Numbered from the stretch's first letter, positions 25,568 through 55,641 are shown. The stretch is DNA of 64,000 nucleotides from Actinomycetales bacterium (GCA_016125355.1 WGLX01000006.1:109047-173046), one strand, 5' to 3'. The notes: generated by a model from the sequence alone, not told the origin. Numbers and translations: made by a program.

Positions 25568-25843
25568 GTGGACGACAACCGACGGATTGCGCGCACGCCC
25601 GGCGTGCTGGAGGCCGAGGTCGACGGCGACCGAGTCCTCATGCATCCAGACGACTACACCTACTACGGCCTGACCGAGACCGGGGCCGCCGTGTGGAGCC
25701 TGATCGACGGCACGCGCTCCGTGGCCGACGTGGTCGCCGCACTGGCCGAGGAGTACGACGCGACGCCCGCGGTCATCCGAACGGACGTCGAGAGCTTCCT
25801 CAGCGGCATGGAGGCGGCCAAGCTGGTCACCTACGGGACCTGA
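25568..25843 (+). CDS. PqqD-family RiPP recognition element (lasso B1-type peptide chaperone)
   Basis: 91 aa with the typical PqqD pattern: [75 protein letters not shown]. It ends 4 nt before the ABC transporter start. Confidence 0.8.
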
Positions 25844-25847
25844 CCGC

Positions 25848-27632
25848 GTGGATCCGTCCGGGTCAGCGAACCAGACCGTGCCCTCGACGAGCACGGCAAC
25901 CCGCGATGCCCGAGAGCTCCTTGGCTTCGCATGGCGTTCGGAGCCCCGACGGCTGGCGTCTCAGTCCGTCCTCCTCGTGGCCACCGGCCTCACCGGAGGA
26001 ATCAGCATGCTCATGCTGGTGCCGGTCGTGAACTCCGTCGCCGGATCGTCCGGGGGAATGACGATCGACATCCCGATCCTGTCCAGCCTGGATCTGTCGG
26101 GGATCCCCCTCCCCGTCCTCCTCCTCATCGTGGTCGCACTGGTCGCCCTGCAGTCCGCACTGTCCTATGCATCGTCGGTGAGCGCCGTCCGGCTGCAGCA
26201 GCTCGTGGTCGACCGGCTCCGGTCGCGCGCCTTCGTGGCGATCCTGGCCGCCCGCTGGGAGTTCGTCCTGGACTCCCGCCGCAGCGACATCGCCGAGATC
26301 GCGACCACCGGCGCTAATCGATGCGGACAGGCCATGAGCGGACTGCTGCGAGCGGCCGTCGCCGCCGTCCTGTCGATCGCCACGGCCGTGGTGGCCCTCA
26401 TCGTGGCGCCCCTCCTCGCCGGGCTGACCATCGTGGCAGTGCTGGCCTTCTCGATCGGACTCATGCGGAGCCTGCGGCCCGCACACGAGATGGGGCAGGC
26501 GTACGGCCTCCGCAATCGAGTCCTGCAGTCCGTCATGCTGAACTCGCTGGACTCCCTCCGGCTGGTCCGGGCGCACGGGGCGGCCGACGTCTGGACGGAT
26601 CAACTGACGGTCGCCTTCGGGGACACCCGCGCCATCCAGCTGGCGAACGTGCGACGCACATCCCGCGTCGCGGCGGTCGCCGCGATCGGTCTGGCGGCGA
26701 GCGCTGCCCTCCTCGTCTTCGTCGCCGTCCAGCTGGACGTGCCGGCCGCGACGATCGTCGTGGTCCTCGTGCTCGCGGCCAGGCTCTCGGCGTCAGTACG
26801 CGGCGTACTGAGCAGCCTGCAGCAGGCGGCGAATGCGCTGCCCGCAGTCGCCGACGTGCGCGAACTGACCGAGCGTGCCGTGGCGGCCGCGGAGAACGGT
26901 GGCGGCCTGGCCGCCCTCCCCCCGCCCGATCCGTCACGCCCGACCGTCGCGCTGCGGAGAGTGACGTACCGCTACCCGGACAGCGATGAGGGCGTCCTCG
27001 ATCTCACTTTCGACATCCCGCGCGGTCGCATCACTGCCCTCGTGGGCCCCTCGGGCGCTGGCAAGTCGACCACCGCCGACATCGTCCTCGGACTCCTGCA
27101 CCCGCGGGAGGGCACCATCGAGGTCGATGGCACGCCGCTCACCCCAGAGCTGCTCGAGTCGTGGCGTCGGCGCGTTGCCTACGTTCCGCAGGACACGCTC
27201 CTGCTCCCGGGCACCCTGCGCTGGAACCTCGTCTGGTCCAGTGCTCGCGAGTCGGTGTCCGACGAGGAGTGCTGGGCGGCCCTCGATGCCGCCGCCGCAG
27301 GCTTCGTGCGCGCCCTTCCCCAAGGACTCGACACCGACCTCGGCGACCGGGGCGTACGGCTCAGCGGGGGCCAGCGGCAACGCCTGGCGATCGCCCGGGC
27401 GCTCGTCCGACGGCCCGAGGTGCTCGTGCTCGACGAGGCGACCAGCGCCCTCGACGACGCCACCGAGGCAGCCGTCCTGTCCGTGCTCTCCTCCCTGACA
27501 CCAGCGCTCACCGTGCTCGTGATCGCCCACCGCAGCACGACGATCGACGTGGCCGACACGGTCGTGACCCTCGAGAGCGGACGGGTGACGGGGATCGCCG
27601 CACGCACGGGTGCCCGCGGAGGCACTCCGTGA
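25848..27632 (+). CDS. ABC transporter, fused permease/ATPase (RiPP exporter or immunity type)
   Basis: 594 aa with an N-terminal 6-TM-like domain, Walker [10 protein letters not shown], the signature [15 protein letters not shown] and Walker [13 protein letters not shown]. Confidence 0.9.
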
Positions 27633-28420
27633 TCGCCCCCGCGGATCCGGGGCTCGCCACCCTCGACCGCTCCGGCGAGCCATGGCTGGGTCACGCACAC
27701 GGTCTGGGGACGGTCCGGGTGTATGCCGATGGCCGGTACGACGTGGAACCGGCCGAAGGCGCCGACGCACGCGCTGCAGAGACACTCGAGCACGGCTGGG
27801 CCGAGCTGCTCGGGCACATCCGTCTCGGCCGCCGGATCGTCGGCGGGACGGTCATGCTGGCACCGGACGCAGCGGATTCCCTGCTCGTGTCCGGCGGGAT
27901 GACGGAGCAGTCACAGGCATGCGTCCTGCTCGCCGAGCGCGGATGGCGCCGGGTGTCGGACGGCTTCACGCCGATCGACACCACCACTCCCCTGCGCGCC
28001 TACCGTCGGGGCGGACCGTGGCTGGTCCCACGGCGGCTGGGCCTGGACTCCGATCTCCTCGACGGCCGCCGGATCCGACCGGGTGCCACCGCACAGGAGG
28101 TCCCGACCCCACCGGTGCCGGAGTCGGTGCCGCTGCGGGCCCGCGTCCTCGTCTCCGAGCACGAGGCGACGACGGGCGAGCCGGTGCCCGTGCTTGCCGA
28201 GGTGTCCGGCCGCCGCCGTATGGGCGTCCAGTTCCAGGCATTCGCCGACCGGTTCGTGGGGGGCGCTGCGGATCCGGCACGCGTCATGGCCGACGACCTG
28301 GCCATCAGCAGTCTCCCCTTGTCGACCCTGCAATGGCCGGCGCTCTACCTCGCGCCGCGAGACGAGCGACTCGCCGCGGTCGACGCCCTGGTGGACTGGT
28401 GGAGGGGCCTCAACCCATGA
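27629..28420 (+). CDS. HPr-kinase-like protein with a degenerate P-loop (possible pseudokinase or scaffold)
   Basis: GTG at 27629 (GTGA overlap with the ABC stop), 263 aa. It aligns by eye to the other HprK-like proteins here (LLVSGGMTEQSQACVLLAERGWRRVSDGFTPID versus [32 protein letters not shown]), but GxGKST is replaced. Confidence 0.55.
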   Translation: MIAPADPGLATLDRSGEPWLGHAHGLGTVRVYADGRYDVEPAEGADARAAETLEHGWAELLGHIRLGRRIVGGTVMLAPDAADSLLVSGGMTEQSQACVLLAERGWRRVSDGFTPIDTTTPLRAYRRGGPWLVPRRLGLDSDLLDGRRIRPGATAQEVPTPPVPESVPLRARVLVSEHEATTGEPVPVLAEVSGRRRMGVQFQAFADRFVGGAADPARVMADDLAISSLPLSTLQWPALYLAPRDERLAAVDALVDWWRGLNP

Positions 28421-30198
28421 ACGATCCCACCGGCCCGATCGTCTGGCTCGCCTCGTACCCGAAGTCCGGCAATACCTGGTTCCGTGCGATCCTGTCGGCC
28501 GTCAAGCGCGGTACCGAGCTGTTCACCCTCGACGTACTCGCCTCGGGCGGCCAGCCGTTCGGTCTGGCCACCAGCGTCGACGTACTGGGGCTCGATCCCC
28601 GGTGGCTGACCCGCAGCGAGGCCGAGCGGTTGCGGTACACGTTGGTGTCGGGGGCCACCGGCGACGAGCCGCGATTCCGCAAGACCCACGAGCGCTACCG
28701 CACCACGCCGATCGAGTGGCCCGAGGCCGAAGGCGACCCGCCGCCACCATTTCCGGTCGAGGCGACGCGGGCGGCCGTGACGATCGTTCGGGATCCGCGA
28801 GCGGTCGCGGTGTCGCTCGCGCACCACTTCGGCAAGTCGCTCGAGGACTCCGTGGACCGGATGGCCCGTGACGACACCCAGCGCGCCGACCCCGCACGGC
28901 TCATCGGTGAGCAGCCCTGGGGGTCATGGTCCGGTCACGCCAGGGCGTGGCACCCGGCCCATCTGCCCTTCCCCGCCTACCGGATCCGCTACGAGGACAT
29001 GCTCGAGCGGCCGATCGAGACGCTCGTTCCGGTTCTGACCGGCGTGGGGATCGAGGTCGACGAGGCGACCCTCGTCGCGGCGCTGGAACGGGTCCGCATC
29101 GATCGTCTTCAGCAGGACGAGGCCGAGCAGGGCTTCCGTGAGACCCATGCCCGAGCACAGCGCTTCTTCCGATCAGGCTCGGCGGACGCGTGGCGCACGG
29201 AGTTGCCGGCCCACCTGATCCGAGCGATCGAGGCCGACCACCAGGACGTCATGGCGGAGTTGGACTACCCGCTCACCAGCGACGCGCCGACCCGCAGGGC
29301 GACGCTGCGCGCCCGCACATCGGCGCGGCGTCATCGCGTCATTCCGTGGAACCGCCTGCCCGACCACCTCGCCTTGGAGGTGAACGAGGGCGCTGTGCCC
29401 GACACCCTCGACGGCGCCCGCAGCGTCCGGCCCTGGCTCGACGTGGCACCGGGCCGGGCCCTCGTCAGGCTGACCGGCGGGACGCGCGTTCTCGTTGCCG
29501 ACGGCTGCCGAGCGACCGTCCACATCGACGCGGACCAGCGAACCAGCGGCGACTGGGCATGGCCGGTGCAGGGCTGGACGGTCGCTCTGGCGATGCTGCA
29601 GCGCGGTCATCTCGTGCTGCACGCGGCAGCTCTCGAACGCGACGGGCGGGCGGTGTGCGTGGCCGGCGCGACCCGAGCCGGGAAGTCGACGACCGCGGTC
29701 GGACTACTCGATCGCGGCTTCCGGCTGCTCGTGGACGACGTGGCCGTCATGGACCCCGAGGGGGATGGGTCGACCGTCCTCCCGTACCTCAGGGGCGTGC
29801 ATCTGACCCGCTCGGCAGCGGAGCGATTGGGCCTCGACTACGACAACCTGCCCGCCTTGTCCGCTGGCCGCGGCAAGGCGGTCTTCCTCGGCGATGACCC
29901 GGGCGGGATCCCGGTGCCGTTGGGAACGGTCGTCGTCCTTCGGCGCTCGGCGGCGATCGGGGCGGTCACCTCGCGTTGGCTGACCGGGACCGAGAAGCTC
30001 GCCGCCCTCCGGCAGCAGACAGACCGAGACGGTGCTGCGGCCGCGATCCTCGGGCAGGCACCGTACTTCGAGCGCCTGGCGAGGTTGGCCGCGTCGACGC
30101 CCGTCCTCGAACTGACCCGTCCGCCGCGAACGTGGTCACTGCAGGAGGTCGTGGAGGGCGTCATGGCGGCCGAGTCCCAGGTCCTTTCCTCTTCCTGA
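28417..30198 (+). CDS. sulfotransferase fused to an HPr-kinase-like domain
   Basis: ATG at 28417 (ATGA overlap), 593 aa. The N-terminal half has the PAPS 5'-PSB motif SYPKSGNTWFRAIL and the 3'-PB-like TIVRDPRAVAVSLAHH. The C-terminal half has LHAAALERDGRAVCVAGATRAGKSTTAVGLLDRGFRLLVDDVAVMD. There is no in-frame stop between the halves, but an internal start cannot be excluded. Confidence 0.8.
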   Translation: MNDPTGPIVWLASYPKSGNTWFRAILSAVKRGTELFTLDVLASGGQPFGLATSVDVLGLDPRWLTRSEAERLRYTLVSGATGDEPRFRKTHERYRTTPIEWPEAEGDPPPPFPVEATRAAVTIVRDPRAVAVSLAHHFGKSLEDSVDRMARDDTQRADPARLIGEQPWGSWSGHARAWHPAHLPFPAYRIRYEDMLERPIETLVPVLTGVGIEVDEATLVAALERVRIDRLQQDEAEQGFRETHARAQRFFRSGSADAWRTELPAHLIRAIEADHQDVMAELDYPLTSDAPTRRATLRARTSARRHRVIPWNRLPDHLALEVNEGAVPDTLDGARSVRPWLDVAPGRALVRLTGGTRVLVADGCRATVHIDADQRTSGDWAWPVQGWTVALAMLQRGHLVLHAAALERDGRAVCVAGATRAGKSTTAVGLLDRGFRLLVDDVAVMDPEGDGSTVLPYLRGVHLTRSAAERLGLDYDNLPALSAGRGKAVFLGDDPGGIPVPLGTVVVLRRSAAIGAVTSRWLTGTEKLAALRQQTDRDGAAAAILGQAPYFERLARLAASTPVLELTRPPRTWSLQEVVEGVMAAESQVLSSS

Positions 30199-30249: not shown

Positions 30250-30378
30250 ATGAATCGATCATTTCGCCCATGGACGCCGCCGCGGATCGAGATGCTGAGG
30301 AGCGCGGCCTCGGCCGAGAGCGGCAACTCCTCCAGCTCGACGGAGAACACGACGTCCAACCCGTCGGCACCCCGGTAG
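30250..30378 (+). CDS. lasso-type RiPP precursor peptide A-a (42 aa)
   Basis: Not in the ORF track (<60 aa). MNRSFRPWTPPRIEMLRSAASAES|GNSSSSTENTTSNPSAPR. It shares W-x-x-P-x-(I/L/V/M)...A-E-S-G with four other small ORFs. The predicted core is Gly1...Glu8. Confidence 0.75.
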   Translation: MNRSFRPWTPPRIEMLRSAASAESGNSSSSTENTTSNPSAPR

Positions 30379-30448: not shown

Positions 30449-30577
30449 ATGAATACGACAAATCGCCCGTGGTCAGCTCCGCAGATGGAGGTCCTGAGCC
30501 ACGTCCTGTCGGCGGAGAGCGGCAACACCTCATTGATCAGCGAGTCGTCCGTTTCCGGCCCTTCGTCACCGAACTAG
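30449..30577 (+). CDS. lasso-type RiPP precursor peptide A-b (42 aa)
   Basis: Not in the ORF track. MNTTNRPWSAPQMEVLSHVLSAES|GNTSLISESSVSGPSSPN. It has the same length and register as A-a, and conserved codons (ATGAAT...CGCCC(A/G)TGG, GAGAGCGGCAAC). Confidence 0.75.
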   Translation: MNTTNRPWSAPQMEVLSHVLSAESGNTSLISESSVSGPSSPN

Positions 30578-30630: not shown

Positions 30631-30768
30631 ATGACAAACTCATTGCGGATCTGGTCCACCCCTCAGATCCTCGTCCTGCGCTCGACCGCCTCGGCCGAGT
30701 CCGGCACGCACACCACCATCACCGAGGCGACCGCAACCACGTACAGCTCCCCGTCCGGCGGCCGCTAG
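30631..30768 (+). CDS. lasso-type RiPP precursor peptide A-c (45 aa)
   Basis: C-terminal part of track ORF 30433..30768, starting at the ATG at 30631. MTNSLRIWSTPQILVLRSTASAES|GTHTTITEATATTYSSPSGGR. Core Gly1...Glu8. Confidence 0.75.
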   Translation: MTNSLRIWSTPQILVLRSTASAESGTHTTITEATATTYSSPSGGR

Positions 30769-30811: not shown

Positions 30812-33358
30812 TCAGCCCGTGACGTCGTCCATCGCGTCGAGGGCCTCGCGAATCGCGGTCGCCGTGTGCAGCCCTGCGGAGCCCGCGATCATCCCGTTGT
30901 GGGTCGCCTCGACGACCACCTGCGTCAGACGGACGCCGGGAATCGCGCTCCAGCCGAGGTCCGAGCGGTCCTGACGACCGCCACCAGCGCCCACCGCCCT
31001 CACGAGAACCACATCCCCCTCATAAGGACCGTCCTCGTGGTTCCTGCTGGCCACCTTGGCGAGGGCTTCGAAAGCCGCATGCTGACGTTCTCCGCGACGG
31101 GCCACGACCCCTGCGGTGAGGGCAAGCCATCGGCGACGAGCCCGACGCATCGGCAGCCGGGCCGCCCAGAACGCCTTGCGGGTGAGCGACGATGCCTTCC
31201 CCTGCGCGGCGCGCACCGCCTCCGCCTGCCGGAGCGCAGGACGTAGATCCGATCGCAGCCGTCGGGCCCGGTTCACCTGCTCCGTGACGGCCAGCGTGTC
31301 CAGCAGCACCACGAGGGGCACCGTCACCCCACGGGTGGTGAGCACGCGCGCGGTCTGCATGGCCACCGTGCCCCCGATGGAGTGGCCGATCAGCACGACC
31401 GGCCCGGTGCCCGCCACCTCGACGATGTCCGACGCGGCCGTCGTCGCCATGGCCTCGATGGTGCGGTCAGGGCGCTCGCGTCGGTCGAAGCCGCGTGGCA
31501 CAGCGACCCAGGCGGTACGGCCGCCGATCGTCCGTGCCAGCGTGGCCATCCCGGAGGTGTGGCCACCGCCACCGCCCGGGAAGAGCACCATCGGCACCGC
31601 ATCGCTCGGACCGGTCGCCGCGCGCACGAGGCGCTGCCGGTCCGGGGCGGCCGACACCCAGGCCTCGGCGAGGAGGGCGGGCGTTGGGTGGCGAAGGAGC
31701 AACCCCTCGGACACCGGACGTCCCCATACCGCCTCCAGTCGGGCGCAGACCTCCGACAGCGCGAGCGAGTCCGCGCCCAGGGCCAGCAGGTCGTCGTCGC
31801 GGCCGATGGCCGGATCACCGAGCACGGACCCGAACACCTCGGCAGCCTGCTGCTCGAAGGGGGATCGCGGTGGTGAGAACGCCGGCCTTCCGGTCGCCGA
31901 AGCCATGGCGGTGAGCGCCGCTCGGTCCACCTTGCCCCGGTCCGTGGAGGGCAGCGCGTCCAGCACCTCAACGCGGGCGGGAACATGCGTTCGGGGCAGG
32001 CGATCCGCGAGTGCCGCGCGCACCTGCCACCCGCGGAGGTCCTGGCCCACGACGAACGCCACAGGACGGGGGCGACCTGCCTGGTCGACGGCGATCACCA
32101 CGGCCGCCTCGTCCACGCCAGGCACGCGGCGCACGACGGCCTCGACCTGAACCGGGTCCACGAGCGCTCCCGAGACCTTGACGACATCGTCGGAGCGTCC
32201 CCGCAGGATCAGGGCGCCTGAGACGTCCCACGTGGCCCGGTCGCCGGTCCGGTACGACCGCCCTGTCGGGAGGTCGAGAAACCTCTCGGCGGTTCGCTCG
32301 GGGTCGTCGAGGTAGCCCAAGGCCAGCCATTCGCTCGACACGACAACCTCGCCGACGTCCTCCGGCCCGACGTCCCCACCATCCGGCCCGACCACCCGCA
32401 CCGTGAGCCACGGCACGACCTCGGTCAGCGGAATGGGATCGGTCGGGACGGGCTCCCCCGGGGGGATGCGAACGCCGGCGATCCAGTTGGTCTCGGAGGT
32501 GCTGTACCGGTGGAGCAGGGTTGCCTCGGGGAACAGCGCCCGTGCGCGATCGATCTGGGCAGCGGTCAGCCGGTCGCCGCCGAGGCTGACCAGGCGGACC
32601 CCCGGCAGGGGCGGCATGTCAGCGGACGCCAGCGCAGTGAGGGCTGCCGGCGCCAGGTGCGCGACGGTGACGCCCTCATCGGCGAGGCGATCGAGCACCG
32701 TGTGCGGACCCTCGGCGCTCAGGTCGGCCGTGATCAGGCGTGCGCCGTGCACCAGTGCGGTCCACGTGGGCGTGCCCGCCGCCACGGCGGAGAACGGGCT
32801 GGACACGAGCACCACGTCGTCTTCCGTGATCCCGACGGAACGGCCGTACGACTCGGCGTTGTGCACGATGCTCCGATGGGCGTGCACAACCGCCTTCGGG
32901 CGGCCCGCGGTCCCCGATGTCATCGAGACGGACGCAGGCAGCCCAGCCGCGGGCCAGCTCGGCGAAGTGATGGTCCGCGGGGGCGCTTCGACAGGAATCA
33001 CCTGCGGCCCCAGATCCAGAGCGGCTCGGCGGTGCAGGATGTCGGCAACCACCGCGCCCACGGAGTGCCGCGCCAGGACCTCCGCGTGGAACGCCGGCGG
33101 AGCATGGGGATCGAGCACGAGGTAGGCACGTCCCGACCAGGCGACACCGAGCATGGCCGCAACCATGTCGAGCCCGTCAGTGCACAGCACCGCCACGGGC
33201 CGGTCGGGCAGGGGGGCATCGCCCACCGCGGCGGCGAGCGCGGCGGATCGGACCGCGAGCTCGCGATAGGACAGAGCGCCGTGACGGGACAGGACGGCGA
33301 CCTTGTCGCAGTCCTCGCGGCCGGCGAGGACAGACTCGGGGAGGCTGCGGTCAGCCAT
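30812..33358 (-). CDS. stand-alone NRPS-like protein: adenylation - PCP - thioesterase
   Basis: 848 aa. A-domain cores: SMTSGTAGRPKAV, YSTSET, YRTGD, GRSDDVVKVSG and PSTDRGKVDR. PCP: LGADSLALSE. TE: GHSIGG. Its start overlaps the cyclase stop by 8 nt. Confidence 0.88.
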   Translation of the reverse strand: MADRSLPESVLAGREDCDKVAVLSRHGALSYRELAVRSAALAAAVGDAPLPDRPVAVLCTDGLDMVAAMLGVAWSGRAYLVLDPHAPPAFHAEVLARHSVGAVVADILHRRAALDLGPQVIPVEAPPRTITSPSWPAAGLPASVSMTSGTAGRPKAVVHAHRSIVHNAESYGRSVGITEDDVVLVSSPFSAVAAGTPTWTALVHGARLITADLSAEGPHTVLDRLADEGVTVAHLAPAALTALASADMPPLPGVRLVSLGGDRLTAAQIDRARALFPEATLLHRYSTSETNWIAGVRIPPGEPVPTDPIPLTEVVPWLTVRVVGPDGGDVGPEDVGEVVVSSEWLALGYLDDPERTAERFLDLPTGRSYRTGDRATWDVSGALILRGRSDDVVKVSGALVDPVQVEAVVRRVPGVDEAAVVIAVDQAGRPRPVAFVVGQDLRGWQVRAALADRLPRTHVPARVEVLDALPSTDRGKVDRAALTAMASATGRPAFSPPRSPFEQQAAEVFGSVLGDPAIGRDDDLLALGADSLALSEVCARLEAVWGRPVSEGLLLRHPTPALLAEAWVSAAPDRQRLVRAATGPSDAVPMVLFPGGGGGHTSGMATLARTIGGRTAWVAVPRGFDRRERPDRTIEAMATTAASDIVEVAGTGPVVLIGHSIGGTVAMQTARVLTTRGVTVPLVVLLDTLAVTEQVNRARRLRSDLRPALRQAEAVRAAQGKASSLTRKAFWAARLPMRRARRRWLALTAGVVARRGERQHAAFEALAKVASRNHEDGPYEGDVVLVRAVGAGGGRQDRSDLGWSAIPGVRLTQVVVEATHNGMIAGSAGLHTATAIREALDAMDDVTG

Positions 33359-49687: not shown

Positions 49688-52095
49688 TGCGACCGGTTCC
49701 GCTGCCGGGCTCGCGCGACCACCTGGAGGTAGTCCAAGCGGGACTCGCCCATCTCAGCCGTCATGTTGCGGCCATGCGCCCGTCGCAGGAGCACCACGTC
49801 GTCGACGGCCCGCTCCGCGATCCCCAGGGCGCGGGCCCGCTCCACCCAGTCGATGCCCTCCCCGACGCGCAGGTCCTCCTCGAAAGGCCCGACCACCTTG
49901 AAGGCCCGACGCGTCACGAGCAGTGCCCCCGGCAGCGGGACCGGCGGCGACGGATCGACGGGCCATGGTTGGTCCTCGTCCGGAACCTCGGCACCGGCGA
50001 ACCGCACCTGGCGGCCGTACGCGATGCCGCGCTCGATCCCGTCCAAGGCTTCGATGAGCGCCCGGCTGCGTCCGCGGGGCCAGGCGTCGTCCGCGTCGAG
50101 GAAGGCCACCCACGCAGCGGACCCGACGGCGACTCCGGAGTTCCGGGCCGCCCCGGCGCCCCGCCGCTCCCCATGCTCGACGATCCGGACGCGATCGATG
50201 TGCCCGGAGGGCACGTGGGCGACAAGGTCCTCGTCCAGGCCGTCGTTCACGAGGATGACCTGAACGTCCACACCCTCCTGCGCCAGGGCGGACTCGACCG
50301 CGGTGCGGAGATAGGCGGTCTCGCCGCCGACCGGGATGACGACGTCCAGCCTCGGCCGGGCCTGCGACCCCACGCGAGCGTGGTGGGCGCGCACGATGGC
50401 GAGCAGCCTGCTGGCCATGCCGACCGATGTCTTGGACTGGTTCGCATCGTGCATCTGCCGCACGAGCACGACGTCGTCGACCTCGCAGCAGGGCTGCCCG
50501 GAGTCGCGCAGGCGCATGAGCCAGTCGACGTCGTCGGTACCGGAGCCGTCGTCCTCGTCGAAAGGCCCCACGTCGGTGAACAGGGCTCGCGAGAACAGCC
50601 CGGCACCGACCACGCGACCCGGGTGGGAGCCCTCGAACCACTCACGGCGCATCCATGCCTGTGCGCTCTCGGGCACGATCGCGACGAACTCCATGCGCCC
50701 GAAGGCAGCGGCGGCGCGCTCCCGTCGCACAGCCGCAAGGAGCACCTCGACGTGGTCGACTGACCACAGGTCGTCCTGGTCCACGAAGGCGATGAACTCC
50801 GACGTCGCGGCCGCGATGCCGCTGTTGCGAGCCGCAGCAACCCCGCGGTTCCCGTCGTGCTCGACGATGCGCAGGTCGTGACCGCGCTTCCGGGCCTCGT
50901 CGACCAGCCCGTGAAGGACCTCGCGGGAGTCATCAGTGGACCCATCGTCGACGGCGACGATCTCGAGGCGACCGGAGGTCTGCTGCAGGACGGCTGCGAT
51001 CGTGCGGGCGAGGAAGCGCGCCCCGTTGTAGACCGGCAGGATCACGCTGACTCGGGGGCGCACGTCGTCGACGATCTCGCCCAGGTCGCGCAGGGTGTCG
51101 TCCAGGCTCTGCCGACGCGGCAGCACCCGGGCCGGCAGCTCGCTGCACGCCTGCCCGAACCGGGAGAGAACGGCGGCGCGGTCGAACGGCAGCGGCATGA
51201 CGGTGTTGGGAGCCCCCACCCGCCGGGCAGCCGCCGGATCGATCGTGGCCCACGGACGATCGGCCGGTGCCCAGGGATCGAGGGCCAGCAGTCCGTCGAT
51301 CCGCATGCTCGGGGTGAGCAGCCGATCGTCCGTAGCCGTCAGCAGGTGCGCCCGCTTGTGCCCGTGGATGTCCCACGTGACGACGTCCGGTCCCGCGGGA
51401 GCCTCCTGTCCCGGCTGCAGCTTCGTCTTGACCGCCGCGTAGACGGCGTACGCGGCCCACCCCCGCGCATCGGGCCGAACGAGGACGGCGTCGTCCCCGC
51501 AGGTGACCCACCCGTGGTTCAGCGCGGCGAGCGTCGTCGTCGACTTGCCGTATCCCGCATCGCCGAGGAGCAGCAGGCCACGGGGCTCCTCGCCGTGCCC
51601 CCCGCGCCCGACGGTGGCGGCGTGGGCGAGGAAGCCGCCCGAGGCGGCGGCCGTCCAGTGCACGAGGAAGCGGAGGGGGCTGACCTGGTCGTACCCGCTC
51701 GGCTCGGCGGCGGTGAGGAGCACGGCCTGGCCGGTCGCCGGGTCCCATCCGAGCACATGGCCCGCAGCCTCCTGCCAGACGAGACGCACGTCCGTCTCCT
51801 CGAGCCCGACGACCTCACCGCGCGGGCCCAGGTCCCCACGGCGCAGCGGCGGTGGGGACACGGATGAGGGCAGGTCGGCGAACGAGGCGGACACCAGGGA
51901 GACGTCCGGGTCGGAGCCCTGCCACGGACGCGCCCACGCGCGGTCGAAGGAAGAGAACCACTCCGGTCGCGCCGTCGCGTGCGCCATCGTGACCGGCCCC
52001 CACTGGGCGCCCGACAATGGGCGGGACACCGGTCGCAGGGCCTCATGGACCTCGTCGATCCAGGCGGCCACCAGCGTCGAGACGTCGGCAACCAT
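49684..52095 (-). CDS. tri-domain protein: HPr-kinase-like domain + two family-2 glycosyltransferase domains
   Basis: 803 aa. N-terminal LLLLGDAGYGKSTTTLAALNHGWVTCGDDAVLV. GT2 number 1: VSVILPVYNGARFLARTIAAVLQQ...VAVDDGSTDDS...FVDQDDLW. GT2 number 2: LDVVIPVGGETAYLRTAVESALAQ...ILVNDG...FLDADDAW. Confidence 0.85.
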   Translation of the reverse strand: MVADVSTLVAAWIDEVHEALRPVSRPLSGAQWGPVTMAHATARPEWFSSFDRAWARPWQGSDPDVSLVSASFADLPSSVSPPPLRRGDLGPRGEVVGLEETDVRLVWQEAAGHVLGWDPATGQAVLLTAAEPSGYDQVSPLRFLVHWTAAASGGFLAHAATVGRGGHGEEPRGLLLLGDAGYGKSTTTLAALNHGWVTCGDDAVLVRPDARGWAAYAVYAAVKTKLQPGQEAPAGPDVVTWDIHGHKRAHLLTATDDRLLTPSMRIDGLLALDPWAPADRPWATIDPAAARRVGAPNTVMPLPFDRAAVLSRFGQACSELPARVLPRRQSLDDTLRDLGEIVDDVRPRVSVILPVYNGARFLARTIAAVLQQTSGRLEIVAVDDGSTDDSREVLHGLVDEARKRGHDLRIVEHDGNRGVAAARNSGIAAATSEFIAFVDQDDLWSVDHVEVLLAAVRRERAAAAFGRMEFVAIVPESAQAWMRREWFEGSHPGRVVGAGLFSRALFTDVGPFDEDDGSGTDDVDWLMRLRDSGQPCCEVDDVVLVRQMHDANQSKTSVGMASRLLAIVRAHHARVGSQARPRLDVVIPVGGETAYLRTAVESALAQEGVDVQVILVNDGLDEDLVAHVPSGHIDRVRIVEHGERRGAGAARNSGVAVGSAAWVAFLDADDAWPRGRSRALIEALDGIERGIAYGRQVRFAGAEVPDEDQPWPVDPSPPVPLPGALLVTRRAFKVVGPFEEDLRVGEGIDWVERARALGIAERAVDDVVLLRRAHGRNMTAEMGESRLDYLQVVARARQRNRSQ

Positions 52096-52106
52096 GGCCG
52101 GTCCGG

Positions 52107-52514
52107 CTACGAGGCGTCCGGGCGCACCGGCCAGCCCACGGCTTCATCCACGTCGTGGATCGGGTCCAGGCCGAGGAGGTCAGCCATGTCGGTGTGCTCG
52201 GAGATCGCCAGGTCGGCGGCCGTCCAGGCCTCCGCGTCGACGGGCGCCGGCTTCGCCATCGTCGCCTCGCGCACGAGGCCGGCCTCCTGCAGCGACGTCA
52301 CGTACTGTGCCAGCGCGGCCTCGCGGTCGTCTTCGCCGGACAGCAGGGCTCGTCCGGGCACTCCGGCGGTGACGGCGCGCCACACCCACAGGCTCTCGGG
52401 AGGCACGACGTAGTAGGCACCGGTGTTCAGATTGATGGCAAGCGTCTCTCCCCCGACCTCGTCGCTGATGACCGAGGGCGAGTCGAGTTCGAAGGGCTTG
52501 TCGAGGATCGACAT
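52107..52514 (-). CDS. PqqD-like protein with a C-terminal extension (third RRE candidate)
   Basis: 135 aa. VISDEVGGETLAINLNTGAYYVVPPESLWVWRAVTAG follows the PqqD beta-strand/helix pattern. It is first in the operon with the HprK-GT2-GT2 gene. Confidence 0.6.
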   Translation of the reverse strand: MSILDKPFELDSPSVISDEVGGETLAINLNTGAYYVVPPESLWVWRAVTAGVPGRALLSGEDDREAALAQYVTSLQEAGLVREATMAKPAPVDAEAWTAADLAISEHTDMADLLGLDPIHDVDEAVGWPVRPDAS

Positions 52515-52554
52515 GCAGGCTCCCTGAGCGCCGAGGACAGTTGGTCGATGCTAC

Positions 52555-53727
52555 TCAGGAGGGTCGATGCCGGTGCGCGGCGAGGGACAGCGTGGACCGG
52601 ACCGCATCGACGAACTCCGCGCGCCCGTAGACATCGCGCGCCGCCGACGCCACTCGCGCTGACGCGGTCCCCCACCGGGCATCGTCCCGGATCAGTCGGA
52701 GGGCCTCCGCGGCGAACTCCTCCGCCTCGTCGGCGATGGCCAGACCGTCCTGCCAGCCGCGGCCGTCGCGAACCAGGACGCCTTCCTGCCCCTCGTGGGT
52801 CGTGACGACCGGAAGCCCCAGAGCCATGGCGGCGACGAGCTTGCGCCGGGCACCGGAGCCGAACCGCAGCGGCGCCACCAGCGCCACGGAGCGGTGGTGC
52901 AGTGCGATCAGTTCGGACTCCGAGACACGGCCGGCGAAGCGCAGCCCGGGCCGCTCGAGGGTGCGGACCAGCTCGGCCGGCCACTCTCCGACGACGGTCA
53001 CCTCCAGGGAGGCGTCCTTCCGGAGCAGCTCCGGGAGGATCGCCGCCGCCAGCCACTCCACCGCATCTCGGTTGGGCGCGTGGGCTGCTCCCCCGACCAT
53101 GAGCAGGCCGCGGCGGCCGGACCGAGGCGGGATCTCGCCTGGGAGCTCGGGGCCGTCGAGGAGGTAGTAGGGAATCCCCACCGCCCGCGCTCCGGGCAGC
53201 GCCGCGTCGACTGCGGTCGCCTCGTGCTCCGTCGGGTAGACGGTCAGGTCGAAGGCCGACCAGCACCGTCGCTCCGCCAACGTGGCCACGCGGGCGTCGC
53301 CTGAGAGCCGCCCGCCCAGGCGGGCCTCGGCGGCGAGGCGCCGCGCGTAGATGTCGTGGCCCCAGTAGATGCCGACCACGTCGGGGGCCTCCTCGAGCGC
53401 GGCCGCGGCGATGGCACCGGGTCCGGGGCGATGCGCGATGACCGTGGAGAACTCCCCCGACCGGAGCAACGCGGGCAGCGCCACGGTCCCCGCGCGGTGC
53501 GCCCGGACGCCCATGCGGCGAAGGGCCTCCAGCTCAGCATCGTCCGCCGGACCCTTGACGCCGAGGGGGAGGAACTCCACGTCCCTGCCGAGGTCCAGGA
53601 GCGCGACGAGCAGGTCGTAGGTGGCGCGCGCGCCCGCGCTGGTCCCGGGGTCGAAGGCAGCACCGTCGACGACGAGCACGCGACCCGGACGGGCGTCAGC
53701 AGACAACGGGCGCTCCACGGGAACCAT
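52555..53727 (-). CDS. GT-B (family 4-like) glycosyltransferase
   Basis: 390 aa. LLMVGGAAHAPNRDAVEWL...LRFAGRVSESELIALHHRSVALVAPLRFGSGARRKLVAAMALGLPVVTTHEG. Confidence 0.75.
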   Translation of the reverse strand: MVPVERPLSADARPGRVLVVDGAAFDPGTSAGARATYDLLVALLDLGRDVEFLPLGVKGPADDAELEALRRMGVRAHRAGTVALPALLRSGEFSTVIAHRPGPGAIAAAALEEAPDVVGIYWGHDIYARRLAAEARLGGRLSGDARVATLAERRCWSAFDLTVYPTEHEATAVDAALPGARAVGIPYYLLDGPELPGEIPPRSGRRGLLMVGGAAHAPNRDAVEWLAAAILPELLRKDASLEVTVVGEWPAELVRTLERPGLRFAGRVSESELIALHHRSVALVAPLRFGSGARRKLVAAMALGLPVVTTHEGQEGVLVRDGRGWQDGLAIADEAEEFAAEALRLIRDDARWGTASARVASAARDVYGRAEFVDAVRSTLSLAAHRHRPS

Positions 53728-53738
53728 GGCGTCAGAGC

Positions 53739-54772
53739 CTAGGTGGCCATCTCGCCGAGGACTTCCCGGCAGGCCTCCACCGCGTCCTTCAGACCTGCGG
53801 CATCCAGGCCGATGACGTGGGTCAGGGGGCTGCTCCCGCGCACCATGACGGCCAGCCGTTCGCGCGCAGCGGCTACGGCAGCGCTCTGGACGGAATCGAG
53901 GGGGAAGGCCTCATCCACCGCGGCGGCGACATCCGCGCGCAGAGCGAAGGCGGCTCGCGACCACTCCCGAGCCGGTGCCGAGAAGGCGATCTCCGAGATC
54001 TCGCGGATGTGGCGGGAGCGCTTGGGACCCCACCCCCGTTCGCGGCGCCACTGCTGCCAGGCGAGCACCCATGCGGCCGGGACGCGCCGGTTGGCCTGCG
54101 GCAGGAGGGGCGGGGCCAGCACCCCGTCGAGATCGAGTGCGCGCAGGATGCGCTCGTCCATGCTGCCCGCCTCGACGCTACCCATGCGGACCTCTCGGCG
54201 GTCCCGCACCGAGGACCAGGCCGACCGCAGCCAGCCGGCGTCCAGCCAGAGCGAGTCTCCGCGCGTGGCGTCGGGATGCAGGAGCACCCACAGCCGGAGC
54301 CGGACCCACGTCTCGAAGGCGGCAGGGGGTCGGCAAGCGCCGCTTGGGAGTAGTCCGACGGGAGGTGCTCGGAGACCCGGCGAAGGACCATCAACACCGC
54401 CGCATCGTCAGGTCGTCCGTCCGTGAGCGAGTCGATCGCGGAGGCGGCCAGGCCGGGCCCCAGCCCCGACAGCAGCTCGGAGGAGATGATCACGCGATCT
54501 GCCGATGTCACGGCAGCGAGCAGCTCCCGCCAGGCCCCGGGCTCCCCGCGACGCTCCCGCGTGGGGTCGGCCGCTGACGTGCGCGTCGGGGCTGGCGTCG
54601 CGCCCGACTCGACGATGAAGTCGGCCACGGCGGCGTTGTGGTCGGGGCGCCCACGGATGATCGGGTAGACGATGCCTGCCTCGCCGAGCTGATCCGCCGC
54701 CTGCGCGAGCGCCTGCTGGAGGGAGGTGCTCATGGCCTTCGGCTGGCCCACGTGCACGACGATGCGCGGCAC
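53739..54772 (-). pseudogene. sulfotransferase-like gene interrupted by a frameshift (or a sequencing error)
   Basis: Track ORFs 53873..54772 and 53739..54287 lie in different frames. The N-terminus (VPRIVVHVGQPKAMSTSLQQAL, P-loop-like) reads sensibly up to ...HLPSDYSQAALADP and then turns into R/S/P/C-rich nonsense. Meaningful sequence resumes in the other frame (FETWVRLRLWVLLHPDATRGDSLWLDAGWL...). A G5/C5 run lies at 54325-54329. Confidence 0.5.
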
Positions 54773-54846
54773 CCGTCACCTCTCCTTCCCTGCCACAGTC
54801 GCCCAGCGCCCGCCGCTTCGGCCGGCGCCAGCACTAGCCTGACGAC

Positions 54847-55641
54847 GTGCCGCCGACCCTGCTTCCCGGCCCCGGCCATGGATCGGTGGAGCACTTCTAC
54901 CACTTCCTCATCGGCTACTTCGCGCCCGTGGCCTGCTGGCTGGCGGATCACCATGAGCCCGAGGTGATCGTCCGCGAGTGCGGTCCGCTGTCGCCCTGGT
55001 TCTCGCTGCTCGAGCCGCTCGCCACGGTCACCGTCCGCTCGGTCGAGGAGGTCGATCGGGCGGACGACCCGGTGGTGCTGCCGCGGACCGACCGGGCCTC
55101 CGAGTTCCCCGGCGCGGTGGTCCAGCGCTTCGCCCGCCTCGTGCTCGACGTTCGTCACCAGCGTTCCGCTGGGGGGCCGGGCGCGTCCGAGCCTCAGATC
55201 ACCGTGGTGGATCGCGGCGCGCCGGATCCGTTCTATGCGTCGGGCGCTGCAGAGATCGCGACGGCGGCGGCGGAACGGCGCTCGATCCCGAACATCGTCG
55301 ACGTCGCTGAGCCGCTCAAGGAGCTCGGCACCCTCGATGTCGTCGACTTCGGGGCGCTGCCCCCGACTGACCAGGTCGACCTCGCCGCACGCACGACAGT
55401 GCTGGTCGGCCAGCACGGTGCAGGCCTGGCGAACATGGTCTGGATGCCGGCGGGGAGCGCGGTCATCGAGATCCTCCCGCCCGTCGGGACCCGCAGCATC
55501 CCGCTGTTCCGGGCCCTGAGCCTTGCCCTGGGTCTCGAGCATCGCGCCGTGCTCCAGGCCGGACCCCATGCCCCGGTAGACCCCGCCCGGGTGCGCTCCG
55601 CGGTCGAGGATGCGCTCCCCGTCATCGGATCGACGGGCTAG
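54847..55641 (+). CDS. GT61/DUF563-like glycosyltransferase
   Basis: 264 aa from a GTG start. HFYHFLIGYF ... TTVLVGQHGAGLANMVWMPAGSAVIEI matches the DUF563 signature. Confidence 0.6.
   Translation: MPPTLLPGPGHGSVEHFYHFLIGYFAPVACWLADHHEPEVIVRECGPLSPWFSLLEPLATVTVRSVEEVDRADDPVVLPRTDRASEFPGAVVQRFARLVLDVRHQRSAGGPGASEPQITVVDRGAPDPFYASGAAEIATAAAERRSIPNIVDVAEPLKELGTLDVVDFGALPPTDQVDLAARTTVLVGQHGAGLANMVWMPAGSAVIEILPPVGTRSIPLFRALSLALGLEHRAVLQAGPHAPVDPARVRSAVEDALPVIGSTG

What the first reader, a model, noticed from the sequence alone, without database searches (positions are those of the whole stretch)
25568..55641. About 30 kb dispersed, multi-precursor lasso-type RiPP super-cluster with an exceptional tailoring complement
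All four lasso hallmarks are present but spread over 18 kb: a PqqD/RRE (25568-25843), an ABC exporter (25848-27632), an Asn-synthetase-like cyclase with an SGGLDS PP-loop (33351-34940) and a Cys/His transglutaminase-like peptidase (42888-43337). Interleaved with them are 8 small peptide genes, 5 HPr-kinase-like domains, 3 PqqD proteins and 2 sulfotransferase-like genes. There are also a PF14907-type nucleotidyltransferase, 5 glycosyltransferase domains, 2 A-PCP-TE proteins, an ATP-grasp, a PhyH dioxygenase, a dehydrogenase/isochorismatase-ALDH cassette and lsr2. Kinases, sulfo-, nucleotidyl- and glycosyl-transferases are each known neighbours of lasso clusters. I am not aware of a characterised system that combines them with carrier-protein modules and two distinct peptide families.
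Basis: partly seen in the sequence, partly recalled or inferred. Interest (0 to 1): 0.95.

Follow-up and report, generated by a model that had tools for sequence, protein, structure and literature searches.

The report
Lasso peptide cluster plus two neighbours
This 30 kb stretch of an uncultured actinobacterium is a real island of peptide natural-product genes, but it is three separately conserved gene sets side by side rather than one giant cluster; the most unusual part is a knotted ("lasso") peptide pathway whose ring-forming enzyme is coupled to a carrier-protein enzyme not reported in any lasso pathway I could find.

Summary
The interpretation, one 30 kb lasso super-cluster, is only partly supported.

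Comparative genomics splits the region into three modules:
- **Module A (25.6–44.6 kb)** is a kinase-associated, paeninodin-type lasso cluster. It has five precursors with a WxxP leader, Gly1–Glu8 ring residues and a conserved Pro-Ser near the C-terminus. It also has a split B1/B2 pair, a cyclase, an ABC exporter, a sulfotransferase–kinase fusion, a kinase and a pseudokinase. Specific to its small clade are two A-PCP-TE enzymes, one translationally coupled to the cyclase, and an IsoDH/isochorismatase-ALDH pair.
- **Module B (44.6–47.2 kb)** has a second peptide family with an invariant Arg-Asn motif and no conserved ring acceptor. With it come a PhyH-like dioxygenase, a kinase and a PqqD protein. 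It occurs alone in freshwater metagenomes with up to seven precursors.
- **Module C (47.2–55.6 kb)** has an HprK-GT2-GT2 fusion, a PqqD-like protein and a GT1. It occurs alone elsewhere.

Lasso clusters sitting next to a second linear kinase/RRE peptide family in glycosyltransferase-rich loci were described for Bacillota in 2026. The A-PCP-TE coupling, the module B family and the kinase–glycosyltransferase fusion appear undescribed. All functions are inferred from sequence.

The parts
25568..25843 (+). PqqD1: discrete RRE (lasso B1) of module A
   Evidence: Pfam PqqD 73.5 bits. The best NCBIfam hit is lasso_PqqD_Bac at 54 bits, below its cutoff of 80. It is 62% identical in L003 and L004 at the same position.
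25848..27632 (+). ABC exporter (TMD+NBD, MsbA/HepA-like)
   Evidence: ABC_tran 114 bits and ABC_membrane. NCBIfam places it nearest HepA/MsbA. It is 64-66% identical in L003, L004 and L089.
27629..28420 (+). g3: degenerate HprK-like protein (pseudokinase), 4-nt overlaps with both neighbours
   Evidence: No Pfam hit. hhalign against the HprK-like alignment gives 95.6%, E 1.3e-8, with the P-loop replaced. It is conserved in L003, L004, L013 and L026.
28417..30198 (+). Sulfotransferase-HprK-like kinase fusion
   Evidence: Sulfotransfer_1 67.9 bits; weak Hpr_kinase_C; TIGR04352 HprK_rel_A E 3e-15. PKSGNTW and GAxxAGKST motifs are present.
30250..30378 (+). Family-1 precursor pA1 (core GNSSSSTENTTSNPSAPR)
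30449..30577 (+). Family-1 precursor pA2 (core GNTSLISESSVSGPSSPN)
30631..30768 (+). Family-1 precursor pA3 (core GTHTTITEATATTYSSPSGGR)
30812..33358 (-). A-PCP-TE 1, start overlaps the cyclase stop by 8 nt
   Evidence: AMP-binding 156 bits, PP-binding, Thioesterase 65.5 bits. All catalytic motifs are conserved. Pocket code VATHSGRWIK: no Asp235, Arg322 invariant in the clade.
33351..34940 (-). Lasso-type macrolactam cyclase (Asn-synthetase-like)
   Evidence: Asn_synthase 83 bits; SGGLDS present; no N-terminal Cys in any of 13 clade members. Among 37 long loci with relatives, 31 carry HprK-like and 31 carry PqqD.
34995..35132 (+). Family-1 precursor pA4 (core GTRYSDSSEGQSQLTFVPSGQA; Glu at 9)
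35207..36049 (+). HprK-like kinase 2
   Evidence: Hpr_kinase_C E 4e-7; TIGR04352 E 2e-12; GDSGAGKST loop. It is 45-55% identical in L003 and L004, divergent from the cyclase.
36093..36233 (+). Family-1 precursor pA5 (core GTYSWSTENSETATGCVVPSGNV)
36244..38862 (-). A-PCP-TE 2 (paralog, 42% identical to A-PCP-TE 1)
   Evidence: Pocket code VATFLGRWTK. The ortholog in L004 is 49% identical.
38859..39815 (-). DUF2332 protein, 4-nt overlap with A-PCP-TE 2
   Evidence: PF10094 178 bits. The same pairing occurs in L004.
39878..40993 (+). Iso_dh family dehydrogenase (LeuB-like, not an equivalog)
   Evidence: Iso_dh 194 bits; TIGR00169 178 bits against a cutoff of 353. It recurs with the cluster in L003, L004, L089 and L104.
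40990..42891 (+). Isochorismatase-aldehyde dehydrogenase fusion
   Evidence: Aldedh 399 bits, Isochorismatase 112 bits. The nearest NCBIfam model is succinic semialdehyde dehydrogenase, below its cutoff.
42888..43391 (-). Lasso leader peptidase B2
   Evidence: NF033537 55.2 bits against a cutoff of 33; Transglut_core3 51.9 bits; Cys and His present.
43455..44576 (+). ATP-grasp family enzyme
   Evidence: Homolog profile against PDB E 1e-12 (CPSase, cyanophycin synthetase, PurD). 16 of 36 homologs hit Pfam ATP-grasp. It lies next to B2 and a family-3 peptide in L103 as well.
44602..44691 (-). Family-3 short peptide (MEHTPLEPWQPPTVDEVALVEDARAISQV)
   Evidence: The homolog in L103 lies between the ATP-grasp gene and B2.
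44704..45723 (-). Probable Fe(II)/2-oxoglutarate dioxygenase (PhyH-like) of module B
   Evidence: PhyH E 0.024 in the window and 0.0018 in the L091 ortholog. Invariant H196, D198, H278 and R288. It is 47-63% identical in L091-L101.
45796..45912 (+). Family-2 precursor pB1
45958..46080 (+). Family-2 precursor pB2
46098..46958 (+). HprK-like kinase 3 (module B)
   Evidence: TIGR04355 and TIGR04352 hits; GFSGAGKST loop. It is 45-71% identical in 11 metagenome contigs.
46955..47230 (+). PqqD2: RRE of module B, 4-nt overlap with kinase 3
   Evidence: PqqD 56 bits. It is 55-67% identical in L091-L099.
47227..48405 (-). PF14907 nucleotidyltransferase
   Evidence: NTP_transf_5 126 bits. It is 49-53% identical to the module-A copies in L003, L004 and L089, and 30-40% identical to the copies in module B and C relatives.
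48424..48777 (-). Cluster-situated Lsr2 paralog
   Evidence: Lsr2 61 bits and Lsr2_DNA-bd 39 bits. It is also adjacent to these genes in L003, L089 and L103.
48785..49687 (-). g19, unknown; conserved partner of the HprK-GT2-GT2 fusion
   Evidence: No Pfam hit. It is 29-42% identical to the gene downstream of the fusion in L006, L007 and L008.
49684..52095 (-). HprK-like-GT2-GT2 fusion
   Evidence: Glycos_transf_2 184 bits in two stretches; weak Hpr_kinase_C; GDAGYGKST loop. About 21 relatives exist at 43-51% identity.
52107..52514 (-). PqqD-like protein with an invariant C-terminal tail
   Evidence: hhalign against PqqD 83%, E 9e-6. It is 52-62% identical in L006-L008, with the tail motif DMADLLGLDPIHD.
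52555..53727 (-). GT1/GT4 glycosyltransferase
   Evidence: Glyco_trans_1_4 78.8 bits. It is 42-50% identical in L006-L008.
53739..54772 (-). g23: two half-ORFs in different frames; the sulfotransferase-like call is unverified
   Evidence: No HMM hit. The L103 homolog is a single 388-aa protein.
54847..55641 (+). GT61/DUF563 glycosyltransferase; membership of module C not shown
   Evidence: Glyco_transf_61 49.5 bits. It is absent from L006-L009.

Best explanation
The region is an island of three adjacent, separately inherited peptide-modification modules. Each is built on the same logic: a PqqD-type recognition protein plus an HprK-like kinase acting on peptides with a W-x-x-P-x-(V/L/I) leader.

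**Module A (25.6 to about 44.6 kb)** is a kinase-associated (paeninodin-type) lasso peptide pathway.
- PqqD1 binds the leader of five precursors.
- The kinases, and probably the sulfotransferase fusion, modify the linear peptide. The most likely site is the invariant Ser of the C-terminal Pro-Ser(-Gly) motif.
- B2 removes the leader.
- The cyclase joins Gly1 to Glu8 (Glu9 in one precursor).
- The PF14907 enzyme may decorate the phosphate.
- The ABC pump exports the product.
- Specific to this small actinobacterial clade, an A-PCP-TE enzyme is co-translated with the cyclase. It activates a non-amino, probably anionic, acid, perhaps made by the IsoDH and isochorismatase-ALDH enzymes, and most likely transfers it to the peptide.

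**Module B** makes linear peptides with an invariant Arg-Asn motif. These are probably hydroxylated and phosphorylated.

**Module C** is a glycosylation unit (HprK-GT2-GT2, PqqD-like, GT1) whose substrate is unknown.

Shown: gene content, motifs and synteny. Inferred: every chemical step, the threaded topology, the acceptor residues and the A-domain substrate.
For: Module A synteny:
- It recurs in L003, L004/5 and the P0004 contig, and partly in L104, with cyclases only 45-54% identical.

Family-1 precursors, 14 from four loci:
- The W-to-Gly1 spacing is 17 in 13 of 14.
- Glu is at core position 8 in 13 of 14.
- The Pro-Ser serine is the 4th or 5th residue from the C-terminus in 14 of 14.

Core enzymes:
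- B2 passes its curated cutoff.
- The cyclase lacks the glutaminase Cys and keeps SGGLDS.
- Of 37 long loci with cyclase relatives across phyla, 31 carry HprK-like and 31 carry PqqD.

A-PCP-TE:
- Its start overlaps the cyclase stop in the window, L003 and L004.
- All A, PCP and TE catalytic motifs are conserved. The pocket lacks Asp235 and has an invariant Arg322.

Other modules:
- Module B stands alone in L091-L101, with up to 7 precursors.
- Module C stands alone in L006-L009.

Precedent: phosphorylation by HprK homologs and glycosylation by PF14907 enzymes in lasso pathways are experimentally established (PMC8498205). Co-localised lasso and linear kinase/RRE peptide clusters are characterised in PMC13381572.
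Against: - No product is known, and the source is an uncultured MAG.
- The leader lacks the usual Thr at position -2 (it is E, Q, M, L or N).
- The cyclase scores far below the curated lasso-cyclase cutoff (94.8 against 525) and about the same as AsnB.
- No curated precursor model matches.
- Several cores have few bulky residues to act as lasso plugs.
- The phospho-acceptor is not C-terminal, unlike in paeninodin.
- L089 keeps ABC, A-PCP-TE, NT5, IsoDH and IsoALDH without any lasso core gene.
- In L104 the cyclase is not followed by an A-PCP-TE. The carrier-protein enzyme may therefore not act on the peptide.
- All three modules share one leader motif, and the window has only one cyclase, one B2, one ABC exporter and one NT5. 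Cross-talk between modules cannot be excluded.
Confidence: 0.68

Rival explanations
1. One reading: the whole 25.6-55.6 kb is one integrated super-cluster. The single cyclase, B2, exporter and nucleotidyltransferase serve all eight peptides, and every tailoring enzyme acts on lasso products.
For: - All eight peptides share the WxxPx(V/L/I) leader motif.
- The window has only one cyclase, one B2, one ABC exporter and one PF14907 gene.
- The PF14907 gene sits in the module C operon yet is most similar to the module A copies of relatives.
- B2, the ATP-grasp gene and a family-3 peptide lie between modules A and B.
Against: - Modules B and C each occur alone in other genomes and contigs with no cyclase or B2 within reach.
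- Module A relatives lack B and C genes within 10 kb.
- Family-2 peptides have E, Q, T or H at the only candidate acceptor position.
- Each module has its own PqqD and kinase. PMC13381572 shows that such paired systems can discriminate between their cognate leaders.
Confidence: 0.12
2. The A-PCP-TE enzymes, with IsoDH, isochorismatase-ALDH, PF14907 and the ABC pump, form a separate small-molecule (NRPS-like) pathway anchored next to clpX. It is merely interleaved or co-regulated with the lasso genes, and no peptide acylation occurs.
For: - L089 has clpX-ABC-A-PCP-TE-NT5-IsoDH-IsoALDH-Lsr2, all intact, and no lasso core gene or WxxP peptide.
- The A-domain pocket lacks Asp235. From memory, this is also true of stand-alone A-T-TE enzymes that use keto or aryl acids.
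Against: - The A-PCP-TE start overlaps the cyclase stop in three loci and lies 4 nt from it in a fourth that lacks IsoDH and ALDH.
- In L104, IsoDH and IsoALDH sit directly upstream of the precursors and cyclase.
- The A-PCP-TE clade is nearly confined to contigs that also carry the cyclase clade.
- The rest of the L089 MAG was not seen.
Confidence: 0.25
3. Module C (and GT61, g23) is ordinary cell-envelope polysaccharide or glycoconjugate biosynthesis that happens to lie next to the peptide clusters. It is not peptide tailoring.
For: - Relatives lie beside polysaccharide genes: Polysacc_synt_C, Epimerase_2, dTDP_sugar_isom, Acyltransferase and DUF2142.
- No WxxP peptide lies near the stand-alone copies.
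- PMC13381572 notes that such peptide clusters are often embedded in capsule loci.
Against: - The GT2 domains are fused to an HprK-like P-loop domain and always paired with a PqqD-like protein and a PF14907 enzyme. This is the same trio that marks peptide-modifying systems.
Confidence: 0.3

Closest known systems
Paeninodin / pseudomycoidin-type lasso peptide clusters (Zhu et al. 2016; Zyubko et al. 2019, as reviewed in PMC8498205)
   Same: - Split B1 (PqqD) and B2, Asn-synthetase-like cyclase and ABC exporter.
- HprK-like kinase, optional sulfotransferase and PF14907 nucleotidyltransferase.
- WxxP leader.
   Different: - The source is an actinobacterial MAG rather than Bacillota or Proteobacteria.
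- The conserved Ser is the 4th or 5th residue from the C-terminus, not the last.
- The leader has no Thr at -2.
- There are five precursors, a sulfotransferase-kinase fusion and a pseudokinase.
- It has A-PCP-TE, DUF2332, IsoDH and isochorismatase-ALDH genes, which are absent from 36 of 37 long loci with cyclase relatives.
Linear polyphosphorylated peptides (LPP) co-localised with lasso clusters in Paenibacillus (Popov et al. 2026, PMC13381572)
   Same: - A second, cyclase-independent peptide family with its own discrete RRE, HprK-like kinase and NTP transferase.
- It sits next to a lasso cluster in a glycosyltransferase-rich locus.
- Its leader carries a closely related [Y/W]xxP motif.
   Different: - No SpI-type signal peptidase was found among the ORFs scanned at 25.5-55.6 kb.
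- The leader is WQAPEVTPLTEAEG, not YxxPxVLxHQxIxFETxxS.
- The peptides are short (34-40 aa) with an invariant Arg-Asn(-Gly).
- A PhyH-like dioxygenase is the conserved partner.
- The paper states that LPPs are restricted to Bacillota.
Carrier-protein-dependent tailoring of ribosomal peptides, e.g. lipolanthines (PMC7540663, listed but not read); details from my own knowledge
   Same: Ribosomal peptide genes are clustered with adenylation and carrier-protein enzymes, which suggests attachment of a non-ribosomal acyl unit.
   Different: Those systems are lanthipeptide-type and use PKS/NRPS or GNAT transfer. Here a single A-PCP-TE tridomain is coupled to a lasso cyclase, and no transfer has been shown.
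Stand-alone A-T-TE NRPS-like enzymes acting on non-amino acids (from my own knowledge; not tested here)
   Same: The A-PCP-TE tridomain architecture is the same, the pocket lacks Asp235, and all catalytic motifs are intact.
   Different: The pocket has an invariant Arg322 and Trp/Gln330. The genomic coupling is to a lasso cyclase, and no sequence comparison with those enzymes was made.

Membership tests
Lasso peptide biosynthetic cluster (split-B type) | Precursor with a [Y/W]xxPx[L/V/I] leader and a core starting with Gly/Ala/Ser/Cys and carrying Asp/Glu at position 7-9 | tested here: met
   Five window precursors and nine in relatives: WxxP leader, Gly1, Glu8 in 13 of 14 and Glu9 in 1 of 14.
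Lasso peptide biosynthetic cluster (split-B type) | Thr at the penultimate leader position | tested here: not met
   Position -2 is E, Q, M, L or N in all 14 precursors. The title of PMC10368454 (listed, not read) indicates that a non-Thr penultimate residue (Ile) occurs.
Lasso peptide biosynthetic cluster (split-B type) | Discrete PqqD-type RRE (B1) | tested here: met
   Pfam PqqD 73.5 bits. The best NCBIfam hit is the lasso PqqD chaperone model, below its cutoff (54 against 80).
Lasso peptide biosynthetic cluster (split-B type) | Transglutaminase-like Cys protease B2 | tested here: met
   NF033537 55.2 bits against a cutoff of 33; Cys and His present.
Lasso peptide biosynthetic cluster (split-B type) | Asn-synthetase-like cyclase distinct from housekeeping AsnB | tested here: inconclusive
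   By HMM score it is equidistant from AsnB (97.6) and the lasso cyclase model (94.8), both far below their cutoffs. Against AsnB: no Cys2 in 13 clade members. In genomic context, 31 of 37 long loci with relatives carry HprK-like and PqqD.
Lasso peptide biosynthetic cluster (split-B type) | Threaded lariat product | not testable with these tools
   This needs MS/NMR or protease and heat stability tests on an isolated product.
Paeninodin-type (kinase-associated) lasso subfamily | HprK-like kinase in the cluster, WxxP rather than YxxP leader | tested here: met
   The WxxP rule is from PMC13381572.
Paeninodin-type (kinase-associated) lasso subfamily | C-terminal Ser as phosphate acceptor | tested here: not met
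   None of the five window cores ends in Ser. The conserved Ser is followed by 3-4 residues.
LPP family (PMC13381572) | SpI-like signal peptidase as leader peptidase | tested here: not met
   None of the ORFs scanned at 25.5-55.6 kb, or in L091, hits a signal-peptidase family.
LPP family (PMC13381572) | Discrete RRE + HprK-like kinase + NTP transferase, no cyclase, linear product | tested here: met
   Module B relatives L091-L101 carry kinase, PqqD and often a PF14907-like gene with no cyclase. Linearity is inferred from the lack of a conserved acceptor.
LPP family (PMC13381572) | Leader consensus YxxPxVLxHQxIxFETxxS | tested here: not met
   The family-2 consensus is WQAPEVTPLTEA(D/E)G.
NRPS amino-acid adenylation module | Asp235 in the substrate pocket, which binds the alpha-amino group | tested here: not met
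The A3, A7, A8 and A10 motifs, the PCP Ser and the TE Ser and His are all present.
ATP-grasp ligases | Sequence-profile match to the ATP-grasp fold | tested here: met
   The profile of 36 homologs matches PDB ATP-grasp enzymes at E 1e-12, and 16 of 36 homologs hit Pfam ATP-grasp. The window protein alone gives no hit.
PhyH-type Fe(II)/2OG dioxygenases | Family HMM match and an HxD...H iron triad | tested here: inconclusive
   Pfam E is 0.024 and 0.0018, below threshold. PDB profile hits to GriE (E 0.25) and EctD (E 1.4) are not significant. H196, D198 and H278 are invariant.

The most novel reading that the evidence does not exclude
The A-PCP-TE enzyme co-translated with the cyclase loads an anionic non-amino acid and esterifies or otherwise attaches it to the lasso peptide. 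This would be the first carrier-protein-dependent tailoring of a lasso peptide, a ribosomal/non-ribosomal hybrid. In addition, the family-2 'Arg-Asn' peptides with their dioxygenase, kinase and PqqD would form a previously unrecognised linear peptide class, widespread in freshwater Actinobacteria.
Probability: 0.3. Interest if true: 0.8.

Novelty: new variant of a known kind. Interest (0 to 1): 0.6.

Why it matters
Lasso peptides are valued as stable scaffolds, and few tailoring reactions are known for them. A conserved coupling of the cyclase to an adenylation/carrier/thioesterase enzyme would add acyl chemistry to that set, and it gives a concrete pair of genes to test.

The window also shows that the Bacillota pattern also occurs in Actinobacteria, with different partner enzymes. 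That pattern is a lasso cluster beside a second linear peptide family that uses a near-identical leader. Here both families use Trp in the leader motif. This makes the window a natural test case for how recognition proteins avoid cross-talk.

Practically, cluster-calling tools would merge these three units into one region. The comparative data give boundaries for cloning.

Tried and rejected
- **Structure prediction.** AlphaFold2 single-sequence models of the PhyH-like protein (mean pLDDT 33.9) and the ATP-grasp protein (38.3) were unusable, so no fold search was run. Alignments with locus-derived homologs could not be submitted to that tool.
- **Single-sequence PDB searches.** Searches with the same two proteins found nothing.
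- **Precursor models.** NCBIfam scans of the eight peptides gave no hit at E up to 10.
- **First PqqD1 scan.** The first Pfam scan of the PqqD1 region used the wrong frame and gave a false negative. This was corrected.
- **Second sulfotransferase.** It found no HMM support.
- **Housekeeping AsnB for the cyclase.** I considered this and rejected it. No clade member has Cys2, and the genomic context argues against it.
- **Family 2 as a second lasso family.** Rejected, because no acidic residue is conserved at ring positions 7-9.
- **Literature.** Searches for lasso clusters with AMP-binding, carrier-protein or thioesterase enzymes found no description of such a system. The library is limited to open-access papers, so this is not proof of absence.
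- **L090.** This A-PCP-TE homolog (36% identical) lies in an unrelated metabolic context and marks the edge of the clade.

Full report
**Source and gene map**

The window is 70% G+C. Its proteins match an NCBI MAG labelled Actinomycetales bacterium exactly: MBI1350208, MBI1350209 and MBI1350223, locus tags GC156_037xx, on a contig of 177,889 bp. NCBI annotates the cyclase as a hypothetical protein.

I called genes from codon-position GC and checked them with Pfam and NCBIfam. The flanks are unrelated:
- On the left are clpX (24020-25327), a LuxR-type regulator and pilus-like genes.
- On the right are Ig-domain surface proteins.

**Check of the observation**

Three calls needed profile methods rather than a direct HMM hit:
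- The fifth HprK-like domain (27629-28420) is a degenerate homolog without a P-loop (hhalign 95.6%).
- The third PqqD (52107-52514) matches the PqqD profile at 83% probability.
- The ATP-grasp (43455-44576) is recognised only through a profile of its homologs (PDB E 1e-12).

Two calls are weaker:
- The PhyH call is weak, but an invariant HxD...H triad supports it.
- The second sulfotransferase is unverified. Its two halves lie in different frames, whereas the homolog in L103 is a single 388-aa protein.

The eight small peptide genes are real. The leader motif in short ORFs occurs nine times against 1.0 expected, and eight of those lie inside the finding. All three peptide families recur in other loci.

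**Module A: a lasso cluster with clade-specific additions (25.6 to about 44.6 kb)**

Close homologs of the cyclase are rare: about a dozen at 42-54% identity, after which identity drops to 36% or less. Their contexts (L003, L004/L005, the P0004 contig, L104) repeat the window's arrangement: PqqD, ABC, pseudokinase, (sulfotransferase-)kinase, 2-4 small ORFs, A-PCP-TE, cyclase, a divergent kinase, then PF14907 and B2 nearby.

Fourteen precursors from four loci form one family:
- The leader is P-W-x-x-P-x-h-x-x-L.
- Gly1 lies 17 residues after the Trp in 13 of 14.
- Glu is at core position 8 in 13 of 14 (position 9 in pA4).
- A Pro-Ser(-Gly) motif places its Ser 4th or 5th from the C-terminus in all 14.

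The window's cores are up to 50% Ser and Thr.

The core enzymes fit a lasso pathway:
- B2 passes the curated lasso B2 cutoff.
- The cyclase scores equally poorly against the AsnB and lasso-cyclase models. It lacks the glutaminase Cys and keeps SGGLDS.
- In one genome per species of GTDB, 31 of 37 long loci with relatives carry an HprK-like gene and 31 carry PqqD.

This places it in the kinase-associated lasso group. The biochemistry of that group is established for paeninodin and pseudomycoidin: phosphorylation of a Ser in the linear precursor, then hexose addition by the PF14907 enzyme (PMC8498205). Trp in the leader motif is typical of that group (PMC13381572).

**The carrier-protein enzymes**

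The two A-PCP-TE proteins are 42% identical paralogs. Their clade has about 14 members at 39% identity or more. Beyond that, matches are ordinary C-A-PCP synthetases.

Evidence linking the clade to the cyclase:
- In the window, L003 and L004 the A-PCP-TE start overlaps the cyclase stop (8-14 nt). In the P0004 contig the gap is 4 nt.
- Matching contig lengths pair further cyclase and A-PCP-TE homologs: P0005/P0150, P0006/P0152 and P0011/P0151.
- Only 1 of 37 long loci with more distant cyclase relatives has such a gene.

All adenylation, carrier and thioesterase catalytic motifs are conserved. The substrate pocket lacks Asp235 and has an invariant Arg322: VATHSGRWIK for A-PCP-TE 1 and VATFLGRWTK for A-PCP-TE 2. 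This points to a non-amino, possibly anionic, acid.

IsoDH (LeuB-like) and the isochorismatase-ALDH fusion (nearest model: succinic semialdehyde dehydrogenase) recur in L003, L004, L089 and L104. In L104 they lie directly upstream of the precursors and cyclase.

My preferred reading is that these enzymes supply and attach an acyl unit to the peptide. This is inference, and there is evidence against it:
- L089 keeps clpX, ABC, A-PCP-TE, PF14907, IsoDH, IsoALDH and Lsr2 with no lasso core gene or WxxP peptide.
- In L104 no A-PCP-TE follows the cyclase.

**B2, ATP-grasp and a third short peptide (42.9-44.7 kb)**

The ATP-grasp gene and the 29-aa peptide at 44602-44691 are also adjacent to B2 in L103. 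That locus is rich in glycosyltransferases and also carries an Lsr2 paralog. The role of this trio is open.

**Module B (44.6-47.2 kb)**

A metagenome scan with kinase 3 found 11 contigs at 45-71% identity. They carry the same set: the PhyH-like gene divergent from 1-6 tandem family-2 peptide genes, then the kinase and PqqD, and often a PF14907-like gene. In L091 the flanks are a CoA ligase, an enoyl-CoA hydratase and a GntR regulator.

Nineteen peptides share W-Q-A-P-E-V-T-P-L-T-E-A-(D/E)-G-A-S-x-x-P-x-A-R-I-R-N-G followed by 1-8 variable residues. W, A, P, V, T9, G13, R23 and N24 are invariant. The only candidate ring acceptor is E, Q, T or H, so these peptides are not lasso substrates.

The closest known analogue is the LPP family of Bacillota (PMC13381572). 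Module B lacks that family's signal peptidase and leader consensus, and has a dioxygenase instead.

**Module C (47.2-55.6 kb)**

The minus-strand run g23, GT1, PqqD-like, HprK-GT2-GT2, g19, Lsr2, PF14907 has gaps of 40 nt or less.

The fusion protein has about 21 relatives at 43-51% identity. In L006, L007 and L008/L009 it keeps GT1, the PqqD-like protein, a g19-like gene and a PF14907 gene (with an ABC gene in two of them). It has no cyclase, B2 or WxxP peptide nearby, and lies next to housekeeping or polysaccharide genes.

The PqqD-like protein carries an invariant C-terminal tail, DMADLLGLDPIHD, whose role is unexplained.

**Comparison with what is known, and verdict**

Already described:
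- Kinase, sulfotransferase and nucleotidyltransferase neighbours of lasso clusters (PMC8498205).
- A lasso cluster beside a second linear kinase/RRE peptide family inside glycosyltransferase-rich loci (PMC13381572).

I found no description of the following, in a library limited to open-access papers:
- an A-PCP-TE coupled to a lasso cyclase;
- the internal Pro-Ser motif of family 1;
- the family-2 peptides with their dioxygenase;
- the HprK-GT2-GT2 fusion.

I therefore file the finding as a new variant of a known kind. The single-super-cluster reading fails the synteny test, and every chemical step is still inferred.

Noticed in passing
window 52107-52514 (-); L006 9640-10050, L007 9589-9996, L008 9609-10025: After its PqqD-like N-terminal ~85 residues, this protein has a C-terminal tail with an invariant motif H-x-DMADLLGLDPIHD-x-D-x-x-GWP in all four homologs. 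It could be a docking element or even the substrate of the HprK-GT2-GT2 fusion.
   Followed up: partly
window 53739-54287 and 54421-54772 (-): The two halves of one gene lie in different frames. The N-terminal half carries an HVGQPKxxSTSLQ motif. The L103 homolog is a single 388-aa protein, so this is a frameshift: either a pseudogene or a MAG assembly error.
   Followed up: partly
window 48424-48777 (-); L003 2936-3304; L089 3875-4252; L103 7907-8281: An Lsr2 paralog (nucleoid-associated silencer family) sits next to these peptide and glycosyltransferase genes in four independent contexts, which suggests a cluster-situated regulator.
   Followed up: partly
L003 18031-21629: In this relative clpX lies inside the cluster. 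A pseudokinase-like gene, a sulfotransferase and an HprK-like gene are on its far side. clpX also flanks the cluster in the window, L004 and L089, so the island has a conserved chromosomal address.
   Followed up: partly
L089 1-14834: This MAG contig keeps ABC, A-PCP-TE, PF14907, IsoDH, isochorismatase-ALDH and Lsr2 next to clpX. It has no cyclase, kinase, PqqD, B2 or WxxP peptide.
   Followed up: partly
L091 7423-9781 and L100 2583-3633: Six tandem family-2 precursor genes lie upstream of the kinase, plus a seventh on the opposite strand after PqqD. They differ mainly in the last 1-8 residues after the invariant Arg-Asn-Gly.
   Followed up: yes
window 56866-57636 and 57649-58020 (-): Two neighbouring ORFs end in the same ...(F/V)(T/R)AT(Y/H)NGETCTVTL sequence. 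One has a long Ser/Asp-rich tract. Neither has a Pfam hit.
   Followed up: no
window 20129-22843 (+): A 904-aa ORF with strong coding signal (GC3 0.94) has no Pfam hit at E 0.01. It lies between pilus-like genes and a LuxR-type regulator.
   Followed up: no
window 59667 (+): The ninth match to the leader motif (WQEPEIARL...) lies antisense to the Ig-domain gene 59261-60784. It is probably chance.
   Followed up: no
L104 726-7905: A compact co-directional arrangement: TauD-type dioxygenase, TetR, IsoDH, isochorismatase-ALDH, two family-1 precursors and the cyclase. The contig ends upstream, so the rest of that cluster was not seen.
   Followed up: partly
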